A DNA stretch of 32,000 nucleotides from Trichodesmium erythraeum IMS101 (GCF_000014265.1 NC_008312.1:4380001-4412000); one strand, 5' to 3'; numbered from the stretch's first letter, positions 11,631 to 22,323 are shown. Made by a program: numbers and translations. Notes: a model not told the origin generated them from the sequence alone.

Positions 11631-12315
11631 TTGTTGAAGTTACTAAATAAAAGTTTTCTGGTTGAGATTATTTGAAATTTATTAAGGACTTGTGTAAAAA
11701 TCAACCAAGTCAATAAAAGCCGAATTTTTGGGTCTAAAGAAAGCGATCGCCAAATAACAAACTCAAACTTATCCTTGATTTTTTCAGTAAGTTTAACAGA
11801 AAGAAAATTCTTGCCGATACCTTTTAAACCAAAAATAGTTACTAAACGAAACTTATCTTCAAGGATCCATCTTGTTAGTATTTCTAATTCTTCTTCTATC
11901 ATAACAAAAGAACTTATATTGGATCTACCACTCCAAACAACTTCATTTTCTGTTTTCATTTTATTAGGTCTATTTTTTTCTTTTTCTATGTCATAGTTAC
12001 CTCCCTTTTTTTTTGCCTGATAATTAATTTTTTTTGACCTGATATTGAGTTAAAAATTGTTGTTGTAACCACTGCAGTTTAATTGCTCTTTTTTTCTCTC
12101 GGTGCGACTTTAAGCTTCTCATAAACAAAATTCATGTGCTTGCTTACCCTCCCAATATCCTAACCTTTTTCATCAACTATTTCCTGGTAAGACTTACTTA
12201 ACAAAAGAGCCGACATAATGGCTATATCATCTTTTTTAACACCATATTCAAAGGCATATTGCTCAATAAATTTCTCGGGAAAATACTGAAAATAGTCACC
12301 CGTACTTTCCTTCAC
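11624..12315 (-). pseudogene. Decayed N-terminal remnant of a STAND (HTH + NB-ARC-type) NTPase gene
   Basis: 11624-11959 encodes EEELEILTRWILEDKFRLVTIFGLKGIGKNFLSVKL...FEFVIWRSL, an NB-ARC-like stretch with a degenerate Walker A. 12079-12315 encodes a LuxR/sigma-r4-like HTH (LLLSKSYQEIVDEKG*DIGRVSKHMNFVYEKLKV) with an in-frame TAG at 12160-12162. The gene is truncated at the SBP gene start. Confidence 0.4.
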
Positions 12316-14348: not shown

Positions 14349-16478
14349 ATGCGGTTGCAACGTCAGTTCAGTGAACAAATTATAACCTTGGATACCCAAA
14401 ACCCCATTGGTGGGGGTGGTGAAGGTCGTATCTATCCTGTGCTCAAAAACCCCTCCTTAGTGGCCAAAATTTACCATAAACCGACAGACGAGGACGCCGA
14501 TAAACTGACCGTAATGTTCTCTCATCCACCAGATGTACCCATAGGAAGCGGACATGCAGCGATCGCATGGCCTATAGATCTATTGCGCACTACTAATAAC
14601 AAACATCAAATAGTTGGTTTTTTAATGCCTCGGGTTTCCAGAGCACAACCCCTACATATATTCTATAACCCTCGCAACCGTCGAGAACAAAAACCTCTTT
14701 TCAACTATCGTTACCTCCATCGCACAGCTCGTAACTTCGTCGCAGCCGTGAACGCTTTACATAACAGTGGATATACTATTGGTGACATCAATGAATCAAA
14801 TATTCTCGTCACCGATACTGCTCTTGTTACCCTAGTTGACACAGACTCCTTTCAAGTGCGCGACCCCTACACCAAAGAAATTTACCGTTGCCCCGTCGGC
14901 AAACTAGAATTTACTCCCCCAGAACTACAAGGTCAGAGTTTCCGGAAAATTGACCGCAAACCTGAACATGACCTATTTGGCATGGCAGTATTAATATTTC
15001 AACTTTTGATGGAGGGAACTCACCCTTTTGCAGGAATTTACAAAGGTAGAGGAGAACCCCCCAACCTTGAAGCTCGGATCCAGGCTGGTCATTTTCCCTA
15101 TAGTCAAAAGCGAGTTCCCTATCGCACGACTCCAACGGCACTACATTGGGAAATTTTACACCCCACTATACAAGAGCTATTCATTAACTGTTTTGAGTTA
15201 GGGCATGAACGCCCAGAGTTGCGCCCAGATGCTAAGGCTTGGTTACAGGGGTTGCGAGAGTCAGAAGATAGTCTAGTGCACTGTCAAAAAAATCATCAGC
15301 ATTGGTATGGAAACTACCTAAAGTCTTGTCCTTGGTGCGCGCGGACTAAACTTTTAAAAGGACGAGACCCTTTTCCATCAAGGGAAGCAGTTAGAAATAA
15401 GCAACATTTGGAACCTGCTCTCAAAAAAGGGAAACTTTTACCTTTAAAGTCACCAAAAGCTACTCCTTCTCAAAAACCAGCTCCACCAAAACCAATTGTG
15501 ATCACTCGACCCATGGGGCAATATCAACCTTTACTGACTCCTGTTGTTACTAAATTTAAGCCCCCCTCTTTACCAATAATTCCTTTGCCAGGGGGTGGTA
15601 AAGGTCTTCTTGGTATTGCTCAAGATGCTATTTTTGGTGGTTTTTGGGGAGTTTTGCTGGCGGCGGCAGTAGCAGGTCTGGTCTTAGGCATAGTTAACAG
15701 TAGCATTGCTATTTTAGGTGGTGTTGTTATGGGAATATTTTGGGGTGCTTTTTTCGCGATCGCTTGCCAATATGTTATCCCTATGAACTCATCTAGTGCT
15801 AGTTTAGGTTTAACAGGGGGGCTCTGGGGAGGGTTTCTGGCTGCTGCTATTACTGGTGCTGTTTATGGAATAGGTAACCGTCTTGGTGCATTTGGCCAAG
15901 CAGTCGTATTAGGAGGATTTTTAGGTACTATTTGGGGTAGTGTTTGGAGTTATTTTAAACCACCTTTAGCGTTTCCTGTTCCTGGGCGAGTTTTGGGTAG
16001 ACGAGGTTTATTTTTAGGTGTAATTTGGGGTGCTTTTTTAGGTACAGTTATTGGAGCTATTTTAGCTGGAATTTTTGTCTTTCAGGAAGCTATGAATGAT
16101 AATAGTAATTCTTGGGATGAATTGGTATCTATATTAATAAGTAGTATGATTTCGGCAATGGGTGTCGGTGCTATGGGTGGAGTTATAGGGGGTGTAATTT
16201 TAGGACCAATTTTAGGTGCTCCTACTTTGCCTTTGTCTAATAATTTATCCGGGGCTAGAGGTGCTTTATTAGGTGGAATTTGGGGGTGTTTTTTAGGTAC
16301 AATTATTGGCATAATTTGCGGTGGTTTTTTACCACAAATAGTGTCAATAGACTTAGTAGAAATTATGCGAGTTAATGGAGACTGGACTTCAATTTTTTCA
16401 ACAATTTTTGGAGCTGGTTTAGGTGCTCTTTGTGGCTGTTTTTCTGGGGCAACTTGGGGTTCTATGGGGAAATGGTAA
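14349..16478 (+). CDS. Atypical (non-RD) protein kinase-like domain + Cys/His zinc-ribbon-like cluster + Pro-rich linker + C-terminal glycine-zipper repeat membrane module
   Basis: 709 aa. G-loop GGGGEGRIY, VAKIY lysine, catalytic loop IGDINESN, DTD in place of DFG, TPPE in place of APE. HC-x14-CPWC lies at nt 15279-15338. From about residue 425 on there are at least 6 hydrophobic G-x-x-W-G-x-F-L-[GA] repeats. Confidence 0.75.
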   Translation: MRLQRQFSEQIITLDTQNPIGGGGEGRIYPVLKNPSLVAKIYHKPTDEDADKLTVMFSHPPDVPIGSGHAAIAWPIDLLRTTNNKHQIVGFLMPRVSRAQPLHIFYNPRNRREQKPLFNYRYLHRTARNFVAAVNALHNSGYTIGDINESNILVTDTALVTLVDTDSFQVRDPYTKEIYRCPVGKLEFTPPELQGQSFRKIDRKPEHDLFGMAVLIFQLLMEGTHPFAGIYKGRGEPPNLEARIQAGHFPYSQKRVPYRTTPTALHWEILHPTIQELFINCFELGHERPELRPDAKAWLQGLRESEDSLVHCQKNHQHWYGNYLKSCPWCARTKLLKGRDPFPSREAVRNKQHLEPALKKGKLLPLKSPKATPSQKPAPPKPIVITRPMGQYQPLLTPVVTKFKPPSLPIIPLPGGGKGLLGIAQDAIFGGFWGVLLAAAVAGLVLGIVNSSIAILGGVVMGIFWGAFFAIACQYVIPMNSSSASLGLTGGLWGGFLAAAITGAVYGIGNRLGAFGQAVVLGGFLGTIWGSVWSYFKPPLAFPVPGRVLGRRGLFLGVIWGAFLGTVIGAILAGIFVFQEAMNDNSNSWDELVSILISSMISAMGVGAMGGVIGGVILGPILGAPTLPLSNNLSGARGALLGGIWGCFLGTIIGIICGGFLPQIVSIDLVEIMRVNGDWTSIFSTIFGAGLGALCGCFSGATWGSMGKW

Positions 16479-16573: not shown

Positions 16574-16600
16574 GAAAGCTGTCTATTTGTGTCACAAATT

Positions 16601-16613
16601 TGCTGTATAAAAT
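16601..16613 (+). promoter_or_regulatory. Candidate extended -10 element TGCTGTATAAAAT upstream of kinase paralog 1
   Basis: An identical 13-mer in a conserved context (CACAAAT.TGCTGTATAAAATTAATAATCT) also lies upstream of paralog 2 at 19210-19222. No experimental support. Confidence 0.25.
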
Positions 16614-16696
16614 TAATAATCTAAAATATTACTTACTTTTGCCTGAGCATTTAAGTGTTTATAATTAATAACAAATAATTGATAATTCAAAAAATT

Positions 16697-18478
16697 ATGC
16701 AGTCTGAACAAATTCTGAGAAACCGTTATAAAGTCATTAAATCTCTAGGAACTGGAGGGTTTGGCTATACCTACTTAGCTGAAGATCTAGACTTACCCGG
16801 ATATCCCAAATGCGTGGTCAAACATCTGAAGCCAAAAAGCCCGGACTCTACAGTTCTAAATATTGCTAGAAAGTTATTTCTAAGAGAAGCAGATATCTTA
16901 TACAAATTAGGTAATGACTCAGACCAAATACCAAGATTATTTGCCTATTTCCAAGAACAAAGAGAATTTTATTTAGTACAAGAATATATAGAAGGGCAAG
17001 ATATAAGTCGGGAGCTGACTCCGGGAAAAAAATTAAGTGAGTCTGACACTATTGCTTTACTCAAAGGAATATTAGAAGCATTAACAGTTGCTCATCAAAA
17101 TAATGTAATTCACCGAGATATTAAACCCCAAAATTTGATGCGCCGTAGGTCAGACAATAAAATAGTATTAATAGACTTTGGGGCGGTAAAAGAAATAGAT
17201 GTATTGACTATAAACCAACAAGGTGCAACAACTTTAACTGTTGCAGTGGGAACTCCTGGCTATATGCCCAGCGAACAAAGCAATGGTAAACCGAAGCTCA
17301 GTAGCGACATATATGCAGTAGGAATGGTAGGGATAAGAGCATTGACAGGTAAGGAACCCCAGAGTTTACTCACAGACCCCAAAACAGGAAATGTGATCTG
17401 GCGAAATGAAGCTCAAGTAAGCAACCGTCTGGCAGATATACTAGATAAGATGGTGCATGAATATTTTCCCCAGCGTTATGAAAATGCCATGGAAGTCTTA
17501 GATGTTTTACAAGAAGCGAGGAAAAAACCTAACCCACCTAAGCCAACACAGAGACCAGCGGCAGAAAGCACACTCAACGTCAACCCATCCCAACCCCGGG
17601 GTCAAGGAGGAAGTTGGTTTGCGGGGAGATTTTTCAATCAAAAACCAGCAAAAATTTCTATTCAGACATTTACTACTGTCACAGTTAACCGAAGAGGAGA
17701 AATAATAAGTCGCGCTCAAGGTCAAGCAGAAGTAATAACAGAAAATATTGGTAATGGAGTTTCTCTAGAAATGGTAAAAATTCCCGGAGGTAGGTTTTTG
17801 ATGGGGTCTCCAAAGAAAGAAGCAGAAAGACTTGACAAGGAAGGTCCGCAACATTATGTAGATGTGCCAGAATTTTTGATGGGAAAATATGCAGTTACTC
17901 AAGCACAGTGGGAAGCAGTTATGGGAAATAACCCTGCTAGGTTTAAAGGTGCAAACCGTCCTGTGGAAAAAGTAAGTTGGAATGATGCGACAGAATTTTG
18001 TCGGAAACTCTCACGAATAACAGGAAAACAATATAGTCTACCCAGTGAGAGCCAATGGGAATATGCTTGTCGAGCCCGAACAACAACACCATTTTATTTT
18101 GGAGAAACTATAACGCCTGAGTTAGTTAACTACGATGGCAACTATACTTATGCTGATGCTCCGAAAGGAAAATATCGAAAAGAAACAACAGATGTGGGAA
18201 TTTTTCCACCGAATGCATTTGGTTTGTACGATATGCATGGGAATGTGTACGAGTTTTGTCAGGATGTTTGGCATGAAAACTATAATGGAGCACCTACTGA
18301 TGGCAGTGCCTGGGAAACTGGAGGTGATAGTAGTAGAAGAGTCTGTCGTGGCGGCTCCTGGGTCAACTATCCTGGGAGGTGTCGCTCTGCGGACCGCATC
18401 AACTATGACTCGGTCGGGGCGGACTACATCGGTATTGGTTTTCGTCTTGTGAGTTTCCCCCCCAGGACTTTTGAATAG
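16697..18478 (+). CDS. Hanks-type Ser/Thr protein kinase fused to a C-terminal FGE/SUMF1-like (CLec-fold) domain, paralog 1
   Basis: GTGGFGYTY, VVKHLK, HRDIKPQN, DFG and GTPGYMPSEQ define the kinase. After a Pro-rich linker come LEMVKIPGGRFLMGSP, VSWNDA, QWEYACRA and RGGSW...GFR, typical of the FGE-sulfatase family. The ATG at 16697 is preferred over the TTG at 16679. Confidence 0.85.
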   Translation: MQSEQILRNRYKVIKSLGTGGFGYTYLAEDLDLPGYPKCVVKHLKPKSPDSTVLNIARKLFLREADILYKLGNDSDQIPRLFAYFQEQREFYLVQEYIEGQDISRELTPGKKLSESDTIALLKGILEALTVAHQNNVIHRDIKPQNLMRRRSDNKIVLIDFGAVKEIDVLTINQQGATTLTVAVGTPGYMPSEQSNGKPKLSSDIYAVGMVGIRALTGKEPQSLLTDPKTGNVIWRNEAQVSNRLADILDKMVHEYFPQRYENAMEVLDVLQEARKKPNPPKPTQRPAAESTLNVNPSQPRGQGGSWFAGRFFNQKPAKISIQTFTTVTVNRRGEIISRAQGQAEVITENIGNGVSLEMVKIPGGRFLMGSPKKEAERLDKEGPQHYVDVPEFLMGKYAVTQAQWEAVMGNNPARFKGANRPVEKVSWNDATEFCRKLSRITGKQYSLPSESQWEYACRARTTTPFYFGETITPELVNYDGNYTYADAPKGKYRKETTDVGIFPPNAFGLYDMHGNVYEFCQDVWHENYNGAPTDGSAWETGGDSSRRVCRGGSWVNYPGRCRSADRINYDSVGADYIGIGFRLVSFPPRTFE

Positions 18479-18508
18479 CCCTTTGCCCTTTTGCCCTCTT
18501 GCCCTTTG
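18479..18508. repeat. Heptamer array (TTGCCCT-type, ~4 units) immediately after the paralog 1 stop
   Basis: ccctttg ccctttt gccctct tgccctt tg, read directly. Confidence 0.5.
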
Positions 18509-18517
18509 TGGTTCATT

Positions 18518-18542
18518 CCCGCTCTGCGGGAAAAATTTTTTT
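18518..18542 (+). terminator. Weak candidate terminator hairpin CCCGC-TCT-GCGGG followed by A5T7
   Basis: 5-bp GC stem at 18518-18530. The U-run is separated from the stem by five A, so this is not a canonical terminator. The paralogous site after copy 2 has lost the stem. Confidence 0.3.
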
Positions 18543-18820
18543 AGACTCAGAGACAACGTAACAAATTATAAAAAACAAATATAAGCAAACACTGTTAACC
18601 CCCTATAATATTAGGCTGATGAAACATGTAGTGTGTAGTAGAACTTTGGCCCTACCCATAGAACCACATCTTGTAGTCAAGAGAACTTATTAGGTTAAAT
18701 AAAACATGACAGCATCAGTGTTATTTAGCATTATTGTAGGGGGTTTCTGGCATTTGCCCATAGCCATTGCATAATGAACCACAGAATAAGACCCTTCAGA
18801 ACCCAGGGCATTTGATATGA

Positions 18821-19008
18821 GATAAAAATTCCCCAGTAGCGATCGCCGCTCAAAAAAACAGTCAAACAATACATCCAACTTTTGCCCATCCAGGAACTTC
18901 AAAAGACAACTGATAAGATAAAAATTCCCCAGTAGCGATCGCCGCTCAAAAACCAATCAAATAATACATCCAACCTTTACCCTACTAGGAACCTCAACAG
19001 ATAACTCA
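18821..19008. repeat. Two tandem ~95-bp units, each starting GATAAAAATTCCCCAGTAGCGATCGCCGCTCAAAAA (HIP1 core)
   Basis: Units at ~18821-18915 and ~18916-19008, read directly. They account for the spurious 88-aa minus-strand ORF with an internal FERRSLLGNFYLIS duplication. Confidence 0.7.
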
Positions 19009-19209
19009 TTAATTTTTGGGAGCTAGCAACAGTGCTATTGGTAACTATTTATCCCAGGTAAGTTGGGGAGCTATGGGGAAAAAGTGATAAACACTACATC
19101 TAGTTAACATCAGAAAATTTATTAAAAAGGCAAAAAAAACCGCCAAAAGACAAAAATTAGCAGCCAGAAGACAAAAAAATCTCAACACCACCCATCCGTC
19201 TCACAAATA

Positions 19210-19222
19210 TGCTGTATAAAAT
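19210..19222 (+). promoter_or_regulatory. Candidate extended -10 element TGCTGTATAAAAT upstream of kinase paralog 2
   Basis: Duplicate of 16601-16613 within the duplicated block. Confidence 0.25.
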
Positions 19223-19305
19223 TAATAATCTGAAACATTATCTACTGCTAGCCGATCATCAAAACCTTTATAATTAAAAATAAACAATTGATCACTCAAA
19301 AAACT

Positions 19306-21162
19306 ATGCAGTCTGGAAAAGTCCTGAGAAACCATTATAAAATCATTAAATCTATTAACAATGGAGGGTTTGGGGATACCTACTTAGCTCAAGATATAGA
19401 CTTACCAGGATATCCAAAATGTGTCGTCAAACACCTTAAACCAAAAAACTTAGATCCTAGAGTTCTAAATGTTGCTAGAAAACTATTTGAAAGAGAAGCA
19501 GACACCTTATACAAACTAGGCAACGACTCAGACCAAATACCAAAATTACTTGCCCATTTCCAAGAACAAAGAGAATTTTACCTAGTACAAGAACATATAG
19601 AAGGGCAAGATATAAGTCGGGAGATGACTCCCGGAAAAAAATTAAGTGAGTCTGACACTATTGCTTTACTCAAAGGAATATTAGAAGCATTAACAGTTGC
19701 TCATCAAAATAATGTAATTCACCGAGACATTAAACCCCAAAATTTGATGCGCCGTAGGTCAGACAATAAAATAGTATTAATAGACTTTGGAGCAGTCAAA
19801 GAAATAGACGTATTGAGTACAGACCAAAACGGTCAAACAATTTTAACCGTTGCAGTGGGAACCCCTGGTTATATGCCCAGCGAACAAAGCAATGGTAAAC
19901 CGAAGCTCAGTAGTGACATATATGCAGTAGGAATGGTAGGGATAAGAGCATTGACAGGTAAAAAGCCCCAGAGTTTACTCACAGACCCCAAAACAGGAAA
20001 CGTGATCTGGCGAAATGAAGCTCAAGTAAGCAACCATCTGGCAAATATACTAGATAAGATGGTGCATGAATATTTTCCCCAGCGTTATGAAAATGCCATG
20101 GAAGTCTTAGATGTTTTATTAGGAGCAAAAGGAAAAATAAACCCACCTAAACCAAAACAGAGACCAACAGCAAAAACGACAGTAAACGTCAACCCATCCC
20201 AACCCCTCCCTAATAACACCATAACACAACTAAGAGATCCAGCAGAAAGTAAGTTGATGGGGAGATTTTGCAATCAAAAACCACCAAAAACCCTCACTCA
20301 GAAATTTACTACCGTCACAGTTAACCGTCAAAAACCACCAAAAAATTCTATTCAGACATTTACTACTGTCACAGTTAACCGAAGAGGGGAAATAATAAGT
20401 CGTACTCAAGGTCAAGCAGAAGTAATAACAGAAAACCTAGGTAATGGAGTTTCTCTAGAAATGGTAAAAATTCCCGGAGGTAGTTTTCTGATGGGTTCTC
20501 CAAAAACAGAAGCAGGAAGATATGACGATGAAGGTCCGCAACACTATGTAAATGTGCCAGAATTTTTCATGGGAAAGTATGTAGTTACTCAAATACAATG
20601 GCGAGCAGTTATGGGAAATAACCCTTCTTGTTTTCAAGGTGCAAGTCTTCCTGTGGAAAGAGTAAGTTGGGATGAAGCGAAAAAATTTTGTCAGAAACTC
20701 TCACAAATAACAGGAAAAAAATATAGTTTACCCAGTGAGAGTCAATGGGAATATGCTTGTAAAGCCGAAACAACAACACCATTTTATTTTGGAGAGACTA
20801 TAACCTCTGAGTTAGTTAACTATTATGGCAACTTTACTTATGCTGATGCTCCCAAAGGAACATATCGAAAAAAAACAACAAACGTAGGAATTTTTCCACC
20901 CAATGCATTTGGTTTATATGATATGCATGGTAATGTCTGGGAGTGGTGTGCCGATGAATGGCATAACAACTATTATGGTGCTCCTACAGATGGTAGTGTT
21001 TGGCTAAATGGAAATGAAAACCTCTCACCGCAGCGGGGTGGTTCCTTAGTCAACTATCCTGATCTTTGCCGTTCTTCGTTTCGCCTCTACTTCAATAGTC
21101 GTGGCGAACGCAGCAGCACTACAGGTTTTCGCGTTATCTGCGATATCGGGAGAACTCTTTGA
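19306..21162 (+). CDS. Hanks-type Ser/Thr protein kinase fused to a C-terminal FGE/SUMF1-like (CLec-fold) domain, paralog 2
   Basis: Same architecture as 16697-18478. G-loop reads NNGGFG. Carries an in-frame 54-bp tandem duplication in the linker. GNVWEWC is retained but RGGSL replaces RGGSW. The ATG at 19306 is preferred over the TTG at 19288. Confidence 0.8.
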   Translation: MQSGKVLRNHYKIIKSINNGGFGDTYLAQDIDLPGYPKCVVKHLKPKNLDPRVLNVARKLFEREADTLYKLGNDSDQIPKLLAHFQEQREFYLVQEHIEGQDISREMTPGKKLSESDTIALLKGILEALTVAHQNNVIHRDIKPQNLMRRRSDNKIVLIDFGAVKEIDVLSTDQNGQTILTVAVGTPGYMPSEQSNGKPKLSSDIYAVGMVGIRALTGKKPQSLLTDPKTGNVIWRNEAQVSNHLANILDKMVHEYFPQRYENAMEVLDVLLGAKGKINPPKPKQRPTAKTTVNVNPSQPLPNNTITQLRDPAESKLMGRFCNQKPPKTLTQKFTTVTVNRQKPPKNSIQTFTTVTVNRRGEIISRTQGQAEVITENLGNGVSLEMVKIPGGSFLMGSPKTEAGRYDDEGPQHYVNVPEFFMGKYVVTQIQWRAVMGNNPSCFQGASLPVERVSWDEAKKFCQKLSQITGKKYSLPSESQWEYACKAETTTPFYFGETITSELVNYYGNFTYADAPKGTYRKKTTNVGIFPPNAFGLYDMHGNVWEWCADEWHNNYYGAPTDGSVWLNGNENLSPQRGGSLVNYPDLCRSSFRLYFNSRGERSSTTGFRVICDIGRTL

Positions 21163-21520
21163 CCCTTTTCTCTTTTTCCCTTTTGCTCTTTATCCTCTCT
21201 TTTTCTTTTTCCTTCCCTGGTGCTCTGGAAAAAAAAATTTTTTTTGAGATATTGAAACTAAGTAACAAATTATCAAAAAAAATTAGAGGCAAAAGCTGTT
21301 AAACCCCTATAATACCGACTCATCAATATAGTGTGTAGTAAAACTTTTGCTCTACCTATAGCACTACCTCTTGTGGTCAGTAAAGTTATTGGGTTAGATA
21401 AAACATGGTAGCATCCGTATTATTTAGCATTATTGTAGGAGGTTATGGCATTTGCCCATAGCCATTACATAATGAAGCAAGGAATAATATAGCTTTGAAC
21501 CTAGGGGACTTGATATTAAA

Positions 21521-21715
21521 TAAATTTTCCCCAGTAGCGATCGCCATCAAAAATTAATCAAATATAACTTCAGGCTAAAGCTCTACTACGAACTTCAACT
21601 TACAACTCATCAGATAAATTTTAGATAAATTTTAGATAAATTTTCCCCAGTAGCGATCGCCACTCAAAAATTAATCACACATCACTTCAGGCTAAAGCTC
21701 TACTACAAACAAAAA
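21521..21715. repeat. Two diverged ~95-110-bp units with the TTCCCCAGTAGCGATCGCC core, plus an 11-bp x3 microrepeat (AGATAAATTTT, 21612-21644)
   Basis: Cores lie at about 21527-21546 and 21643-21662, each followed by TCAAAAATTAATCA...CTTCAGGCTAAAGCTCTACTAC. Paralogous to 18821-19008. Confidence 0.6.
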
Positions 21716-22323
21716 ACTTTTTTATTAATAAAAAAACCTTTGACTAAGAATTAGAACTTATAGTTTTTGGGAAACAGTAACAAAATAATTGAACTCAGAA
21801 ATAGTCACAAAACCCCAACTAGAAAACACCATTGATCTTTCTAATATCATTTATGTAATTATTTAGCAGTTTTCCAGAGTCATCACAGTTATTCCCCTCC
21901 TATTATACCATTAGAACATCAATTATTTAGCCGAAAGCATCTAGAGTATTTTTCAGTATAGTTCTGTACTTTAGGTACTTTAGATAGTTAAAAATCTTAA
22001 CTACTCCGGCTAATAATATATGATAAAATAGGAAAGCCATCAACTCCCCTTATGTTCCAGTGTGATCAGAAACAAAACTAATCAAAAATTAGCCTTATGA
22101 TCATAAACATTTCACATAAACCAAATTTCTCCGCTATATTTACACCAATGCTACCAGACTAGACATCAATAGTGTTACTAGTCCCCTAGCTTGCCATTTA
22201 GCCTACCTTTTCAACAAACCTCCTTTATCAACCCAACATAAGCATAATATTTTTGTCTAGTGTATCAAACTCATGTTAAAAAGATAAAGTACAGCTAAAA
22301 AACTTATAAGTAGGAAACTAAAA

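What the first reader, a model, noticed from the sequence alone, without database searches (positions are those of the whole stretch)
18347..18478. Hypervariable C-terminal tail of the FGE/CLec-like domains with an NNC codon pattern: possible DGR variable regions (partner at 21034-21162)
My hand alignment of the paralogs used conserved anchors RGGS, VNYP, CRS, R and GFR, with identical length. Between the anchors, 18374-18436 vs 21061-21123 share only 28 of 63 nt, against 80% or more in the rest of the FGE-like domain and ~99% in part of the kinase domain. Five codon columns keep third-position C while positions 1 and 2 vary: atc/ctc, aac/tac, gac/cgc, tac/agc, atc/agc. That is the footprint expected when AAC-rich template codons are diversified by adenine mutagenesis. 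The scaffold RGGSW-x6-CRSA-x-R-x12-GFR at the extreme C-terminus of a CLec/FGE fold is what I recall for DGR variable proteins. I also recall cyanobacterial DGR targets being reported to include kinase-CLec fusions. Two caveats apply. No RT, avd or template repeat is in this window. Several synonymous differences in anchor codons (cgt/cgg, ggc/ggt, tgt/tgc, cgc/cgt) are ordinary divergence not explained by a shared template.
Basis: partly seen in the sequence, partly recalled or inferred. Interest (0 to 1): 0.8.

Follow-up and report, generated by a model that had tools for sequence, protein, structure and literature searches.

The report
Known DGR target tail plus a fossil
The variable tail at 18347-18478 is a genuine variable region of a diversity-generating retroelement, but it is the already published remote target Tery_2829 of Trichodesmium erythraeum IMS101, and its proposed partner at 21034-21162 is a frozen, degenerate relic of a different variable-region lineage.

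Summary
Two tandem kinase/FGE (CLec-type) paralogs are 86-100% identical over most of their length, but share only 28 of 63 nt at 18374-18436 vs 21061-21123.

The window is T. erythraeum IMS101, about chromosome 4,380,001-4,412,000. Gene A is Tery_2829 (ABG52003.1) and gene B is ABG52005.1.

Aligned to the published template repeat TR2 of IMS101, 18351-18470 is identical at 106 of 120 nt. Twelve mismatches sit on template adenines, at codon positions 1 or 2. The other two lie at the extreme 3' edge (P = 5e-9). Three papers already list Tery_2829 as a remote DGR target, one as hypervariable in ocean metagenomes.

Gene B's tail matches neither IMS101 template (39 non-adenine mismatches to TR2). 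It belongs to a second tail class (…GFRLVCDGGRTL) and departs from that class's invariant positions at 21 sites, 17 of them non-adenine. It lacks the downstream GC hairpin. It is identical in all 12 full-tail members of its 90% cluster and about 95% conserved in another species, which is background divergence.

So the DGR reading is right for A and wrong for B. The A/B contrast reflects two tail lineages, not one template. Nothing is new for A. B as a fossil is a small refinement.

The parts
16679..18478 (+). Gene A, a Ser/Thr kinase + FGE/CLec protein. It is Tery_2829 (ABG52003.1, WP_011612364.1) and a published remote DGR target.
   Evidence: ORF. Pfam Pkinase at aa 17-268 and FGE-sulfatase at aa 364-591. 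100% identical to P0001 of IMS101. The ORF has the same length as RVP_4396679, chromosome 4396679-4398478, in Paul et al. 2022 Table S2.
18351..18465 (+). Variable region of gene A, homologous to template repeat TR2 of IMS101. The diversified columns lie in 18362-18434.
   Evidence: ungapped alignment to TR2 with 12 mismatches, all at template adenines and none at non-adenine positions in this span. All 26 adenines of the diversified stretch sit at codon position 1 or 2. A matches the invariant columns of five other class-1 tails at 121 of 123 positions.
18435..18465 (+). Invariant 3' block of the VR (TTGGTTTTCGTCTTGTGAGTTTCCCCCCCAG). It is the likely homing-initiation (IMH-like) homology.
   Evidence: Identical to TR2. 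Identical to L001-L004 and L006; the L009 ortholog differs at two bases. Pfreundt et al. 2014 describe a 35-bp conserved 3' stretch. The role in homing is inferred, not tested.
18479..18504 (+). CT-rich 3'UTR repeat CCCTTTGCCCTTTTGCCCTCTTGCCC, conserved downstream of the target genes.
   Evidence: A matches class-1 invariants at 29 of 29 positions in the stop codon plus first 30 nt of 3'UTR. The motif is also recognisable in class 2 and in gene B. Function unknown.
18516..18532 (+). GC-rich hairpin TTCCCGC-TCT-GCGGGAA followed by a T run. It looks like a terminator and is possibly the DGR target hairpin.
   Evidence: (-7.6 kcal/mol, z = -2.3). An equivalent hairpin follows the other intact class-1 and class-2 tails. 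The role in homing is inferred.
19288..21162 (+). Gene B, the tandem paralog. It is a Ser/Thr kinase + FGE/CLec protein (ABG52005.1, WP_011612366.1).
   Evidence: ORF, Pfam, accessions. Vallota-Eastman et al. 2020 Table S3 list it only as a paralog, without the remote-target tag. It is absent from the 18 remote targets in Paul et al. 2022.
21034..21162 (+). Tail of gene B. It is a degenerate, non-diversifying relic of a second VR class (…GFRLVCDGGRTL type).
   Evidence: 56 mismatches to TR2, 39 of them at non-adenine positions. 111 of 132 matches to class-2 invariants, with 17 of the 21 misses at non-adenine sites. Identical tail in all 12 full-tail members of its 90% cluster. 8 differences in 162 nt against the L009 ortholog, which is background divergence. 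No GC hairpin downstream.
16589..21800 (+). Tandem duplication of about 2.7 kb (gene plus downstream intergenic DNA) that carries genes A and B.

Best explanation
**What gene A's tail is.** Gene A (Tery_2829) is a Hanks-type Ser/Thr kinase fused to a C-terminal FGE-type C-lectin fold. Its last ~40 codons are a remote variable region of DGR2 of Trichodesmium erythraeum IMS101.

**How diversification works.**
- The template repeat TR2 lies about 1.77 Mb away, next to the RT gene Tery_1728/1729. It is transcribed as an abundant non-coding RNA.
- The DGR reverse transcriptase copies this RNA and misincorporates opposite adenines.
- The cDNA then replaces the VR. Replacement is guided by the invariant 3' block, and probably also by the downstream hairpin.
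- Up to 17 codons, carrying 26 adenine positions (all at codon positions 1 or 2), are rewritten. The scaffold codons are reset to the template sequence.
- In this genome 12 of the 26 positions differ from the template.
- According to the literature, the cognate RT carries a premature stop in the IMS101 sequence. The allele is therefore frozen in this strain and varies in wild populations.

**What gene B's tail is.** Gene B is a tandem duplicate whose last ~280 nt belong to a different VR lineage (class 2). No class-2 template is reported in IMS101. Its tail has accumulated ordinary substitutions at scaffold and 3' homology positions, has lost the hairpin, and is fixed. It is a fossil VR.

**Shown versus inferred.**
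- Shown here: the TR/VR alignment, the adenine restriction, the class assignment, and the population and ortholog contrast.
- Taken from papers: the existence and positions of the RT and TR, TR expression, the RT stop codon, and hypervariability in Tara Oceans reads.
- Inferred: the homing roles of the 3' block and the hairpin, the ligand-sensing function, and the fossil origin of B's tail.
For: **Gene A against the template and its class**
- 18351-18470 vs TR2 is identical at 106 of 120 nt. Twelve mismatches fall on template adenines. The only two others are at the 3' edge, at 18466 and 18470.
- the probability that all 12 fall on adenines is 5e-9. All 26 adenines of the diversified stretch are at codon position 1 or 2.
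- six other class-1 tails share every scaffold base with A, synonymous sites included, and vary as NNC/NNT codons. These come from Trichodesmium MAGs, an ENA assembly and an ortholog in another species. Variable columns number 15, 15 and 2 at codon positions 1, 2 and 3. A matches 121 of 123 invariant columns, and both misses are at adenines.
- against the syntenic ortholog L009 (94.7% identity overall), VR-A drops to 62-82% identity while B's tail stays at 91-98%.
- members of A's 90% cluster carry at least four different VRs. All 12 members of B's cluster that include the tail carry the same one.

**Identity of the genes and published status**
- identity with Tery_2829 (ABG52003.1) and ABG52005.1.
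- PMC4143802: TR RNA, 12 VRs, 17 codons, 26 adenines, RT stop codon.
- PMC7517822 Tables S1 and S3: ABG52003.1 is tagged as a remote variable protein. ABG52005.1 is listed only as a paralog.
- PMC8867640 Tables S1 and S2: TR sequences. Tery_2829 is listed as hypervariable 'yes' with TR2 homology.

**Fold**
- the C-terminal domain matches the DGR variable protein TvpA (2Y3C, E = 1.4e-23).
Against: - The RT and TR were not seen with the tools, because the IMS101 genome is not in the searchable collections. Their existence and the TR sequence rest on the three papers.
- My TR-specific metagenome scan found nothing. It assumed AAT where TR2 has TAT.
- One apparent strain difference in VR-A (L006) is paralog-derived and cannot count as new diversification.
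- A MAG of T. erythraeum GBRTRLIN201 carries a VR-A identical to IMS101's. Diversification in the T. erythraeum lineage may therefore be rare or already switched off in nature.
- For B, the class-2 invariant columns rest on only three nucleotide sequences.
Confidence: 0.93

Rival explanations
1. Both tails are variable regions diversified from one shared template.
For: The scaffold is the same, RGGS-x-P-x-CRS-x-R-x13-GFR, with equal length. Five NNC/NNC codon columns are present. A 13-nt stretch, GTCAACTATCCTG, is identical in the two tails.
Against: B differs from TR2 at 39 non-adenine positions and aligns no better to TR1. B matches class-1 invariant columns at only 62 of 123 positions. The two tails also differ in the 3' homology block and in the 3'UTR.
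Confidence: 0.02
2. Gene B's tail is an active variable region of an unreported class-2 template somewhere in the IMS101 genome.
For: Class-2 tails in other Trichodesmium assemblies differ mainly at codon positions 1 and 2 within otherwise 99.7% identical loci (L010 vs L011). A class-2 template therefore probably exists in some Trichodesmium. IMS101 has another class-2 gene, Tery_4351.
Against: B departs from class-2 invariants at 17 non-adenine sites, including W to L in RGGSW, A to S in CRSA and three bases in the 3' block. There is no hairpin downstream. The tail is identical in all 12 full-tail members of its 90% cluster and shows only background divergence from the ortholog in another species. 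Two independent surveys of IMS101 list no such template or target.
Confidence: 0.04
3. No retroelement is involved. The tails diverged by relaxed or diversifying selection on the ligand-binding loop of duplicated genes.
For: No RT or TR is in the window. Paralog tails can diverge quickly.
Against: For A, ordinary divergence cannot explain perfect identity at all non-adenine template positions, synonymous sites included, while 12 adenine positions differ. Nor can it explain the 15/15/2 distribution of variable columns over codon positions. For B, the current state is compatible with ordinary evolution. Even so, its NNC/NNT codons on a class-2 scaffold point to a templated past.
Confidence: 0.02

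Closest known systems
Remote variable protein Tery_2829 of DGR2 in Trichodesmium erythraeum IMS101 (Pfreundt et al. 2014; Vallota-Eastman et al. 2020; Paul et al. 2022)
   Same: It is the same gene. The protein is identical. The ORF length matches the published chromosome coordinates 4396679-4398478. It has TR2 homology and is listed as hypervariable.
   Different: Nothing differs for gene A. The papers do not discuss the neighbouring paralog's tail beyond listing it as a paralog.
TvpA, Treponema denticola variable protein 1 (PDB 2Y3C), a DGR variable protein with an FGE-type C-lectin fold
   Same: The C-terminal domain is homologous by sequence (E = 1.4e-23). The VR sits at the C-terminal end of the fold.
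   Different: TvpA is a lipoprotein with no kinase domain, encoded next to its RT. Gene A is a cytoplasmic-type kinase fusion targeted in trans from about 1.77 Mb away.
Bordetella phage BPP-1 DGR (Mtd, TR, Brt, IMH and downstream hairpin)
   Same: It shows the same adenine-specific TR-to-VR differences, a VR at the 3' end of the gene, an invariant 3' homology block and a GC hairpin downstream.
   Different: It is a phage tail-fibre target in cis with a classical CLec fold. Here there are many chromosomal targets in trans. The hairpin lies about 50 nt beyond the homology block and looks like a terminator. Its role here is untested.
Relic VR paralogs such as all3226 of Nostoc sp. PCC 7120 (Vallota-Eastman et al. 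2020)
   Same: Like gene B, this is a kinase/CLec paralog with remnant VR-like sequence and no active diversification.
   Different: all3226 keeps remnant homology to a template in its own genome. Gene B's tail matches neither IMS101 template and belongs to a tail class whose template is not reported in this genome.

Membership tests
DGR variable region (gene A, 18351-18465) | A template repeat elsewhere in the genome that matches the VR | tested here: met
   The TR2 sequence taken from PMC8867640 Table S1 aligns without gaps and is identical at 106 of 120 nt. The TR itself could not be fetched with the tools.
DGR variable region (gene A, 18351-18465) | TR/VR differences confined to template adenines | tested here: met
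   All 12 internal mismatches are at adenines, P = 5e-9. The two other mismatches are at the 3' boundary.
DGR variable region (gene A, 18351-18465) | A DGR-type reverse transcriptase in the same genome | not testable with these tools
   There is none in the window. The literature reports Tery_1728/1729, which has a premature stop, and Tery_1035.
DGR variable region (gene A, 18351-18465) | VR at the C-terminal end of a CLec/FGE-fold ligand-binding domain | tested here: met
   Pfam FGE-sulfatase at aa 364-591 of 599. Homology to TvpA, 2Y3C.
DGR variable region (gene A, 18351-18465) | An invariant 3' homology (IMH-like) block and a downstream hairpin | tested here: met
   The 31-nt block 18435-18465 is identical to TR2. 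It is also identical in all the other class-1 tails except the L009 ortholog, which differs at two bases. The hairpin is at 18516-18532. The function of either element was not tested.
DGR variable region (gene A, 18351-18465) | Site-restricted hypervariability between strains or populations | tested here: met
   The L009 ortholog is 62-82% identical in the VR against 94.7% overall. Members of the 90% cluster carry at least four VRs. The caveat is possible assembly chimeras. Paul et al. 2022 list the gene as hypervariable 'yes'.
DGR variable region (gene B, 21034-21162) | A template repeat in the genome that matches the VR except at adenines | tested here: not met
   There are 39 non-adenine mismatches to TR2, and the alignment to TR1 is equally poor. 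The gene is not among the published targets.
DGR variable region (gene B, 21034-21162) | Site-restricted hypervariability between strains or populations | tested here: not met
   The tail is identical in all 12 full-tail members of the cluster. It shows 8 differences in 162 nt against the L009 ortholog, which is background divergence and is not restricted to adenine columns.
DGR variable region (gene B, 21034-21162) | An intact 3' homology block and hairpin of its class | tested here: not met
   B matches 33 of 37 class-2 invariant positions in the 3' block. There is no stable hairpin, z = 0.01.
Hanks-type Ser/Thr protein kinase (genes A and B) | A Pkinase domain above the Pfam threshold | tested here: met
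   E = 1.3e-34 for A and 2.3e-30 for B.

The most novel reading that the evidence does not exclude
The tandem pair records modular exchange of VR cassettes. Two kinase paralogs kept nearly identical by gene conversion carry about 280-nt tails from two different DGR lineages. One tail is still templated by TR2. The other is a fixed relic of a class-2 DGR that T. erythraeum no longer has but that still seems active in other Trichodesmium species. Together with identical VR alleles in two independent T. erythraeum isolates, this would mean DGR targets in this lineage are being frozen one by one in nature, not only in culture.
Probability: 0.4. Interest if true: 0.3.

Novelty: already known. Interest (0 to 1): 0.15.

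Why it matters
Gene A adds nothing new. Tery_2829 is listed as a DGR remote target in three papers, and its hypervariability in ocean metagenomes has been reported.

The case is useful as a check on the scan. A reader working from raw sequence recognised a real DGR variable region without seeing the RT or the template.

The modest added value concerns the neighbour.
- Gene B's tail belongs to a different VR class.
- It is degenerate and is fixed across assemblies and species.
- This is a concrete example of a target that has left the diversification system.

Tried and rejected
- **Template copy in the window.** Low-stringency blastn searches found none.
- **Fetching the source genome.** IMS101 proteins are not on record for contig look-ups. 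The genome-collection scan returned only Trichodesmium MAG loci, none with an RT or TR.
- **Metagenome scans.** Both returned nothing. The first assumed AAT at a codon where TR2 has TAT. The second used only invariant bases and still found nothing, so that collection apparently lacks these sequences.
- **Viral-contig scans.** Two scans were empty.
- **Reaching the Trichodesmium RT through a relative.** I used the Anabaena sp. 90 plasmid DGR RT as the query. Nearly all named hits in the listed top 120 were Nostocales, and none was from Trichodesmium.
- **L006 as evidence of fresh diversification.** L006 is identical to the window outside genes A and B. It differs in VR-A at 15 sites; 14 are TR2 adenine positions and one (18345) lies just upstream of the printed TR2. 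I rejected this as evidence. The L006 VR equals that of paralog Tery_0461, and 23 of 23 kinase-domain differences equal gene B bases. It is therefore gene conversion or an assembly chimera.
- **The 79-aa FGE-like ORF downstream of the class-2 gene in L010 and L011.** I considered it as a possible template repeat. I rejected it because it is the 3' end of another paralog.

Full report
**1. The observation**

The window contains a tandem duplication of about 2.7 kb, 16589-19200 and 19198-21800. Each copy carries one gene. Gene A is 16679-18478 and gene B is 19288-21162. Both encode an N-terminal Pkinase domain and a C-terminal FGE-sulfatase (C-lectin-type) domain.

A sliding comparison gives the following:
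- 85-100% identity through the kinase;
- about 86% through the FGE domain;
- 45-60% in about 18248-18530;
- 75-88% again in the duplicated non-coding DNA downstream.

18374-18436 and 21061-21123 share 28 of 63 nt, and no other 63-nt window of the gene alignment falls below 45. The anchors, the five NNC columns and the synonymous anchor differences are all there. No RT, Avd or template-like copy is present in the 32 kb.

**2. Where the window comes from**

Gene A is 100% identical to a Ser/Thr kinase of Trichodesmium erythraeum IMS101. It is Tery_2829, with accessions ABG52003.1 and WP_011612364.1. Gene B is ABG52005.1 and WP_011612366.1.

The ORF 16679-18478 has the same length as the entry RVP_4396679, chromosome 4396679-4398478. 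The window is therefore chromosome 4,380,001-4,412,000.

The IMS101 genome itself is not in the searchable contig collections.

**3. Two classes of tail**

The C-termini of homologs fall into two scaffolds:
- Class 1: …AWETGGDSSRRVxRGGSWxxxPxxCRSAxRxxxxSxExDxxxIGFRLVSFPPRTFE. This class includes gene A and Tery_0460, Tery_0461 and Tery_0462.
- Class 2: …VWLNGNKxRSPLRGGSWxxxPxxCRSAxRxxxxRRDxxxxxGFRLVCDGGRTL. This class includes Tery_4351 and, in damaged form, gene B.

The A/B contrast is therefore between two tail lineages attached to otherwise near-identical paralogs.

**4. Gene A is a true DGR variable region**

*Comparison with other class-1 tails.* I collected six more class-1 tails at the nucleotide level:
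- four from Trichodesmium MAGs (L001-L004);
- one from an ENA assembly syntenic with the window (L006);
- one from the syntenic ortholog in another Trichodesmium species (L009).

They share every scaffold base, synonymous sites included, and vary as NNC/NNT codons. Between RGGSW and GFR, variable columns number 15, 15 and 2 at codon positions 1, 2 and 3. A matches the invariant columns derived from five of these tails (excluding A and L006) at 121 of 123 positions, and both misses are at adenines.

*Comparison with the published template.* Paul et al. 2022 (PMC8867640, Table S1) print the two IMS101 template repeats. Aligned without gaps, TR2 and window 18351-18470 are identical at 106 of 120 nt.
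- Twelve mismatches are at template adenines: 18362, 18363, 18374, 18392, 18399, 18407, 18414, 18417, 18425, 18429, 18431 and 18432.
- The only two other mismatches, at 18466 and 18470, lie at the 3' edge where template and target part.
- The chance that 12 mismatches all fall on the 28 adenines among 115 positions is 5e-9.
- All 26 adenines of the diversified stretch are at codon position 1 or 2. This equals the 26 adenines and 17 codons reported by Pfreundt et al. 2014.

*Cis elements.* The 31-nt block 18435-18465 is identical to TR2. A GC hairpin, TTCCCGC-TCT-GCGGGAA, with a T run follows at 18516-18532. An equivalent hairpin follows the other intact tails.

*Fold.* The C-terminal domain is homologous to TvpA, a solved DGR variable protein (2Y3C, E = 1.4e-23).

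**5. Variation between strains and species**

Against L009 (94.7% identity over 11.3 kb), 45-nt windows across VR-A fall to 28, 37 and 34 identities. Those across B's tail stay at 44, 43 and 41.

Members of A's 90% protein cluster carry at least four VRs: VNYPGR…, LNYPWW…, DFSPRG… and HFFPWW…. All 12 members of B's cluster that include the tail, from several MAGs and assemblies, carry the same one.

One caution applies. L006 is identical to the window outside genes A and B. It differs in VR-A at 15 sites; 14 are TR2 adenine positions and one (18345) lies just upstream of the printed TR2. However:
- its VR equals that of paralog Tery_0461;
- 23 of 23 differences in A's kinase region equal gene B bases.

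That mosaic is gene conversion or an assembly chimera. I do not count it as fresh diversification.

**6. Gene B is not a target**

- Against TR2 in the same register, B has 56 mismatches, 39 of them at non-adenine positions. Its alignment to TR1 is equally poor.
- It matches class-1 invariants at 62 of 123 positions and class-2 invariants (L007, L010, L011) at 111 of 132.
- Seventeen of its 21 departures from class 2 are at non-adenine sites. They include TGG to TTA in RGGSW, GCG to TCG in CRSA, and three changes in the 3' block.
- No hairpin follows it (z = 0.01).
- It differs from its L009 ortholog at 8 of 162 positions. This is background divergence, and the differences are not restricted to adenine columns.

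Its codons in the former variable columns are still mostly NNC/NNT, which fits a templated past.

Class-2 tails do look diversified elsewhere. L010 and L011 hold the same gene from two samples and are 99.7% identical. About 22 mismatches fall in the gene region, and 14 of them lie within the 72 nt at L010 11727-11798. This points to a class-2 template in other Trichodesmium species. None is reported in IMS101.

**7. What is already published**

- Pfreundt et al. 2014 (PMC4143802) described the highly expressed TR RNA. It lies next to an RT gene split by a stop codon (Tery_1728/1729). They also described 12 VR genes, mostly kinase-DUF323 fusions. Resequencing the VRs in culture showed no change.
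- Vallota-Eastman et al. 2020 (PMC7517822) list ABG52003.1 as a remote variable protein. They list ABG52005.1 and ABG53343.1 only as paralogs. They also discuss paralog dispersal and loss of diversification.
- Paul et al. 2022 list Tery_2829 as a TR2 remote target that is hypervariable in Tara Oceans metagenomes. Gene B is absent from their 18 loci.

**8. Mechanism and verdict**

Gene A's tail works as a trans-targeted DGR variable region. Adenine-mutagenised cDNA of TR2 replaces 18351-18465 and rewrites up to 17 codons on the ligand-binding face of the FGE/CLec domain that is fused to the kinase. The ligand and the signalling output are unknown. Papers propose sensing or substrate selection.

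In the sequenced strain the cognate RT is reported broken, so the allele is static. A MAG of another T. erythraeum isolate has the same VR-A and the same Tery_0462 VR. This hints that activity in this lineage is low or was lost before cultivation. That point is not settled here.

Gene B's tail is a fossil. The finding is real, correctly interpreted for A, mistaken for B, and already known.

Noticed in passing
window 18516-18532; L009 about 1271-1287; L010 and L011 about 11895-11910: The loop of the GC hairpin just downstream of the VR genes is inverted between close relatives, while the stem is kept. The window has CCCGC-TCT-GCGGG and L009 has CCCGC-AGA-GCGGG. L010 has CCCGC-TCC-GCGGG and L011 has CCCGC-GGA-GCGGG. 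These are two independent loop flips in two comparisons.
   Followed up: partly
window 18362-18374 and 21049-21061: A 13-nt stretch, GTCAACTATCCTG, is identical in VR-A and in B's tail, although the flanking scaffold codons differ. It includes three positions that are template adenines in TR2. It could be chance or a short conversion tract between the tandem paralogs. B's ortholog in L009 has it too.
   Followed up: partly
window 17119-17435 and 20388-20768 (compared with L006): All 67 differences between the window and a syntenic 21.9-kb ENA contig lie inside genes A and B and are paralog-derived. 23 of 23 in A's kinase equal gene B bases, and 17 of 26 in B equal gene A bases. This indicates frequent gene conversion between paralogs, or metagenome assembly chimeras.
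   Followed up: yes
window 18479-18504 (and 21163-21190): The CT-rich 3'UTR motif CCCTTTGCCCTTTTGCCCTCTTGCCC directly after the stop codon is conserved in all class-1 target genes. It is recognisable after class-2 genes and after gene B. It lies outside the TR2 stretch printed in the literature. It may be a target-side cis element.
   Followed up: no
P0015 (Tery_4351, IMS101) and L007 11650-12652: Tery_4351 is a kinase with two tandem FGE domains. Each ends in a class-2 VR-like segment with different variable residues. The internal one reads on into the second domain. In the ENA assembly L007 both copies carry the same VR.
   Followed up: partly
P0122 and P0140 (T. erythraeum GBRTRLIN201 MAG): An independent T. 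erythraeum assembly has VRs identical to IMS101's in Tery_2829 and Tery_0462. This sits uneasily with the idea that the DGR was switched off only in the IMS101 culture.
   Followed up: no
window 14349-16478 (+): A third gene lies just upstream of gene A. It encodes 709 aa with a weak, sub-threshold Pkinase match and a long glycine-rich, hydrophobic C-terminal half. That half contains an internal 73-nt repeat at 16003-16075 and 16258-16330.
   Followed up: no
window 18820-19009 and 21518-21688: Families of 55-62-nt direct repeats containing the cyanobacterial HIP1 palindrome GCGATCGC lie in the intergenic DNA after each paralog, with two copies per unit.
   Followed up: no
L010 12413-12652; L011 12414-12653: A 79-aa ORF with an FGE hit lies about 570 nt downstream of a class-2 kinase gene. 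It is the 3' end of a further paralog with a damaged scaffold (RGVSW, CRCA, WDGGITF), so it is another relic tail.
   Followed up: partly
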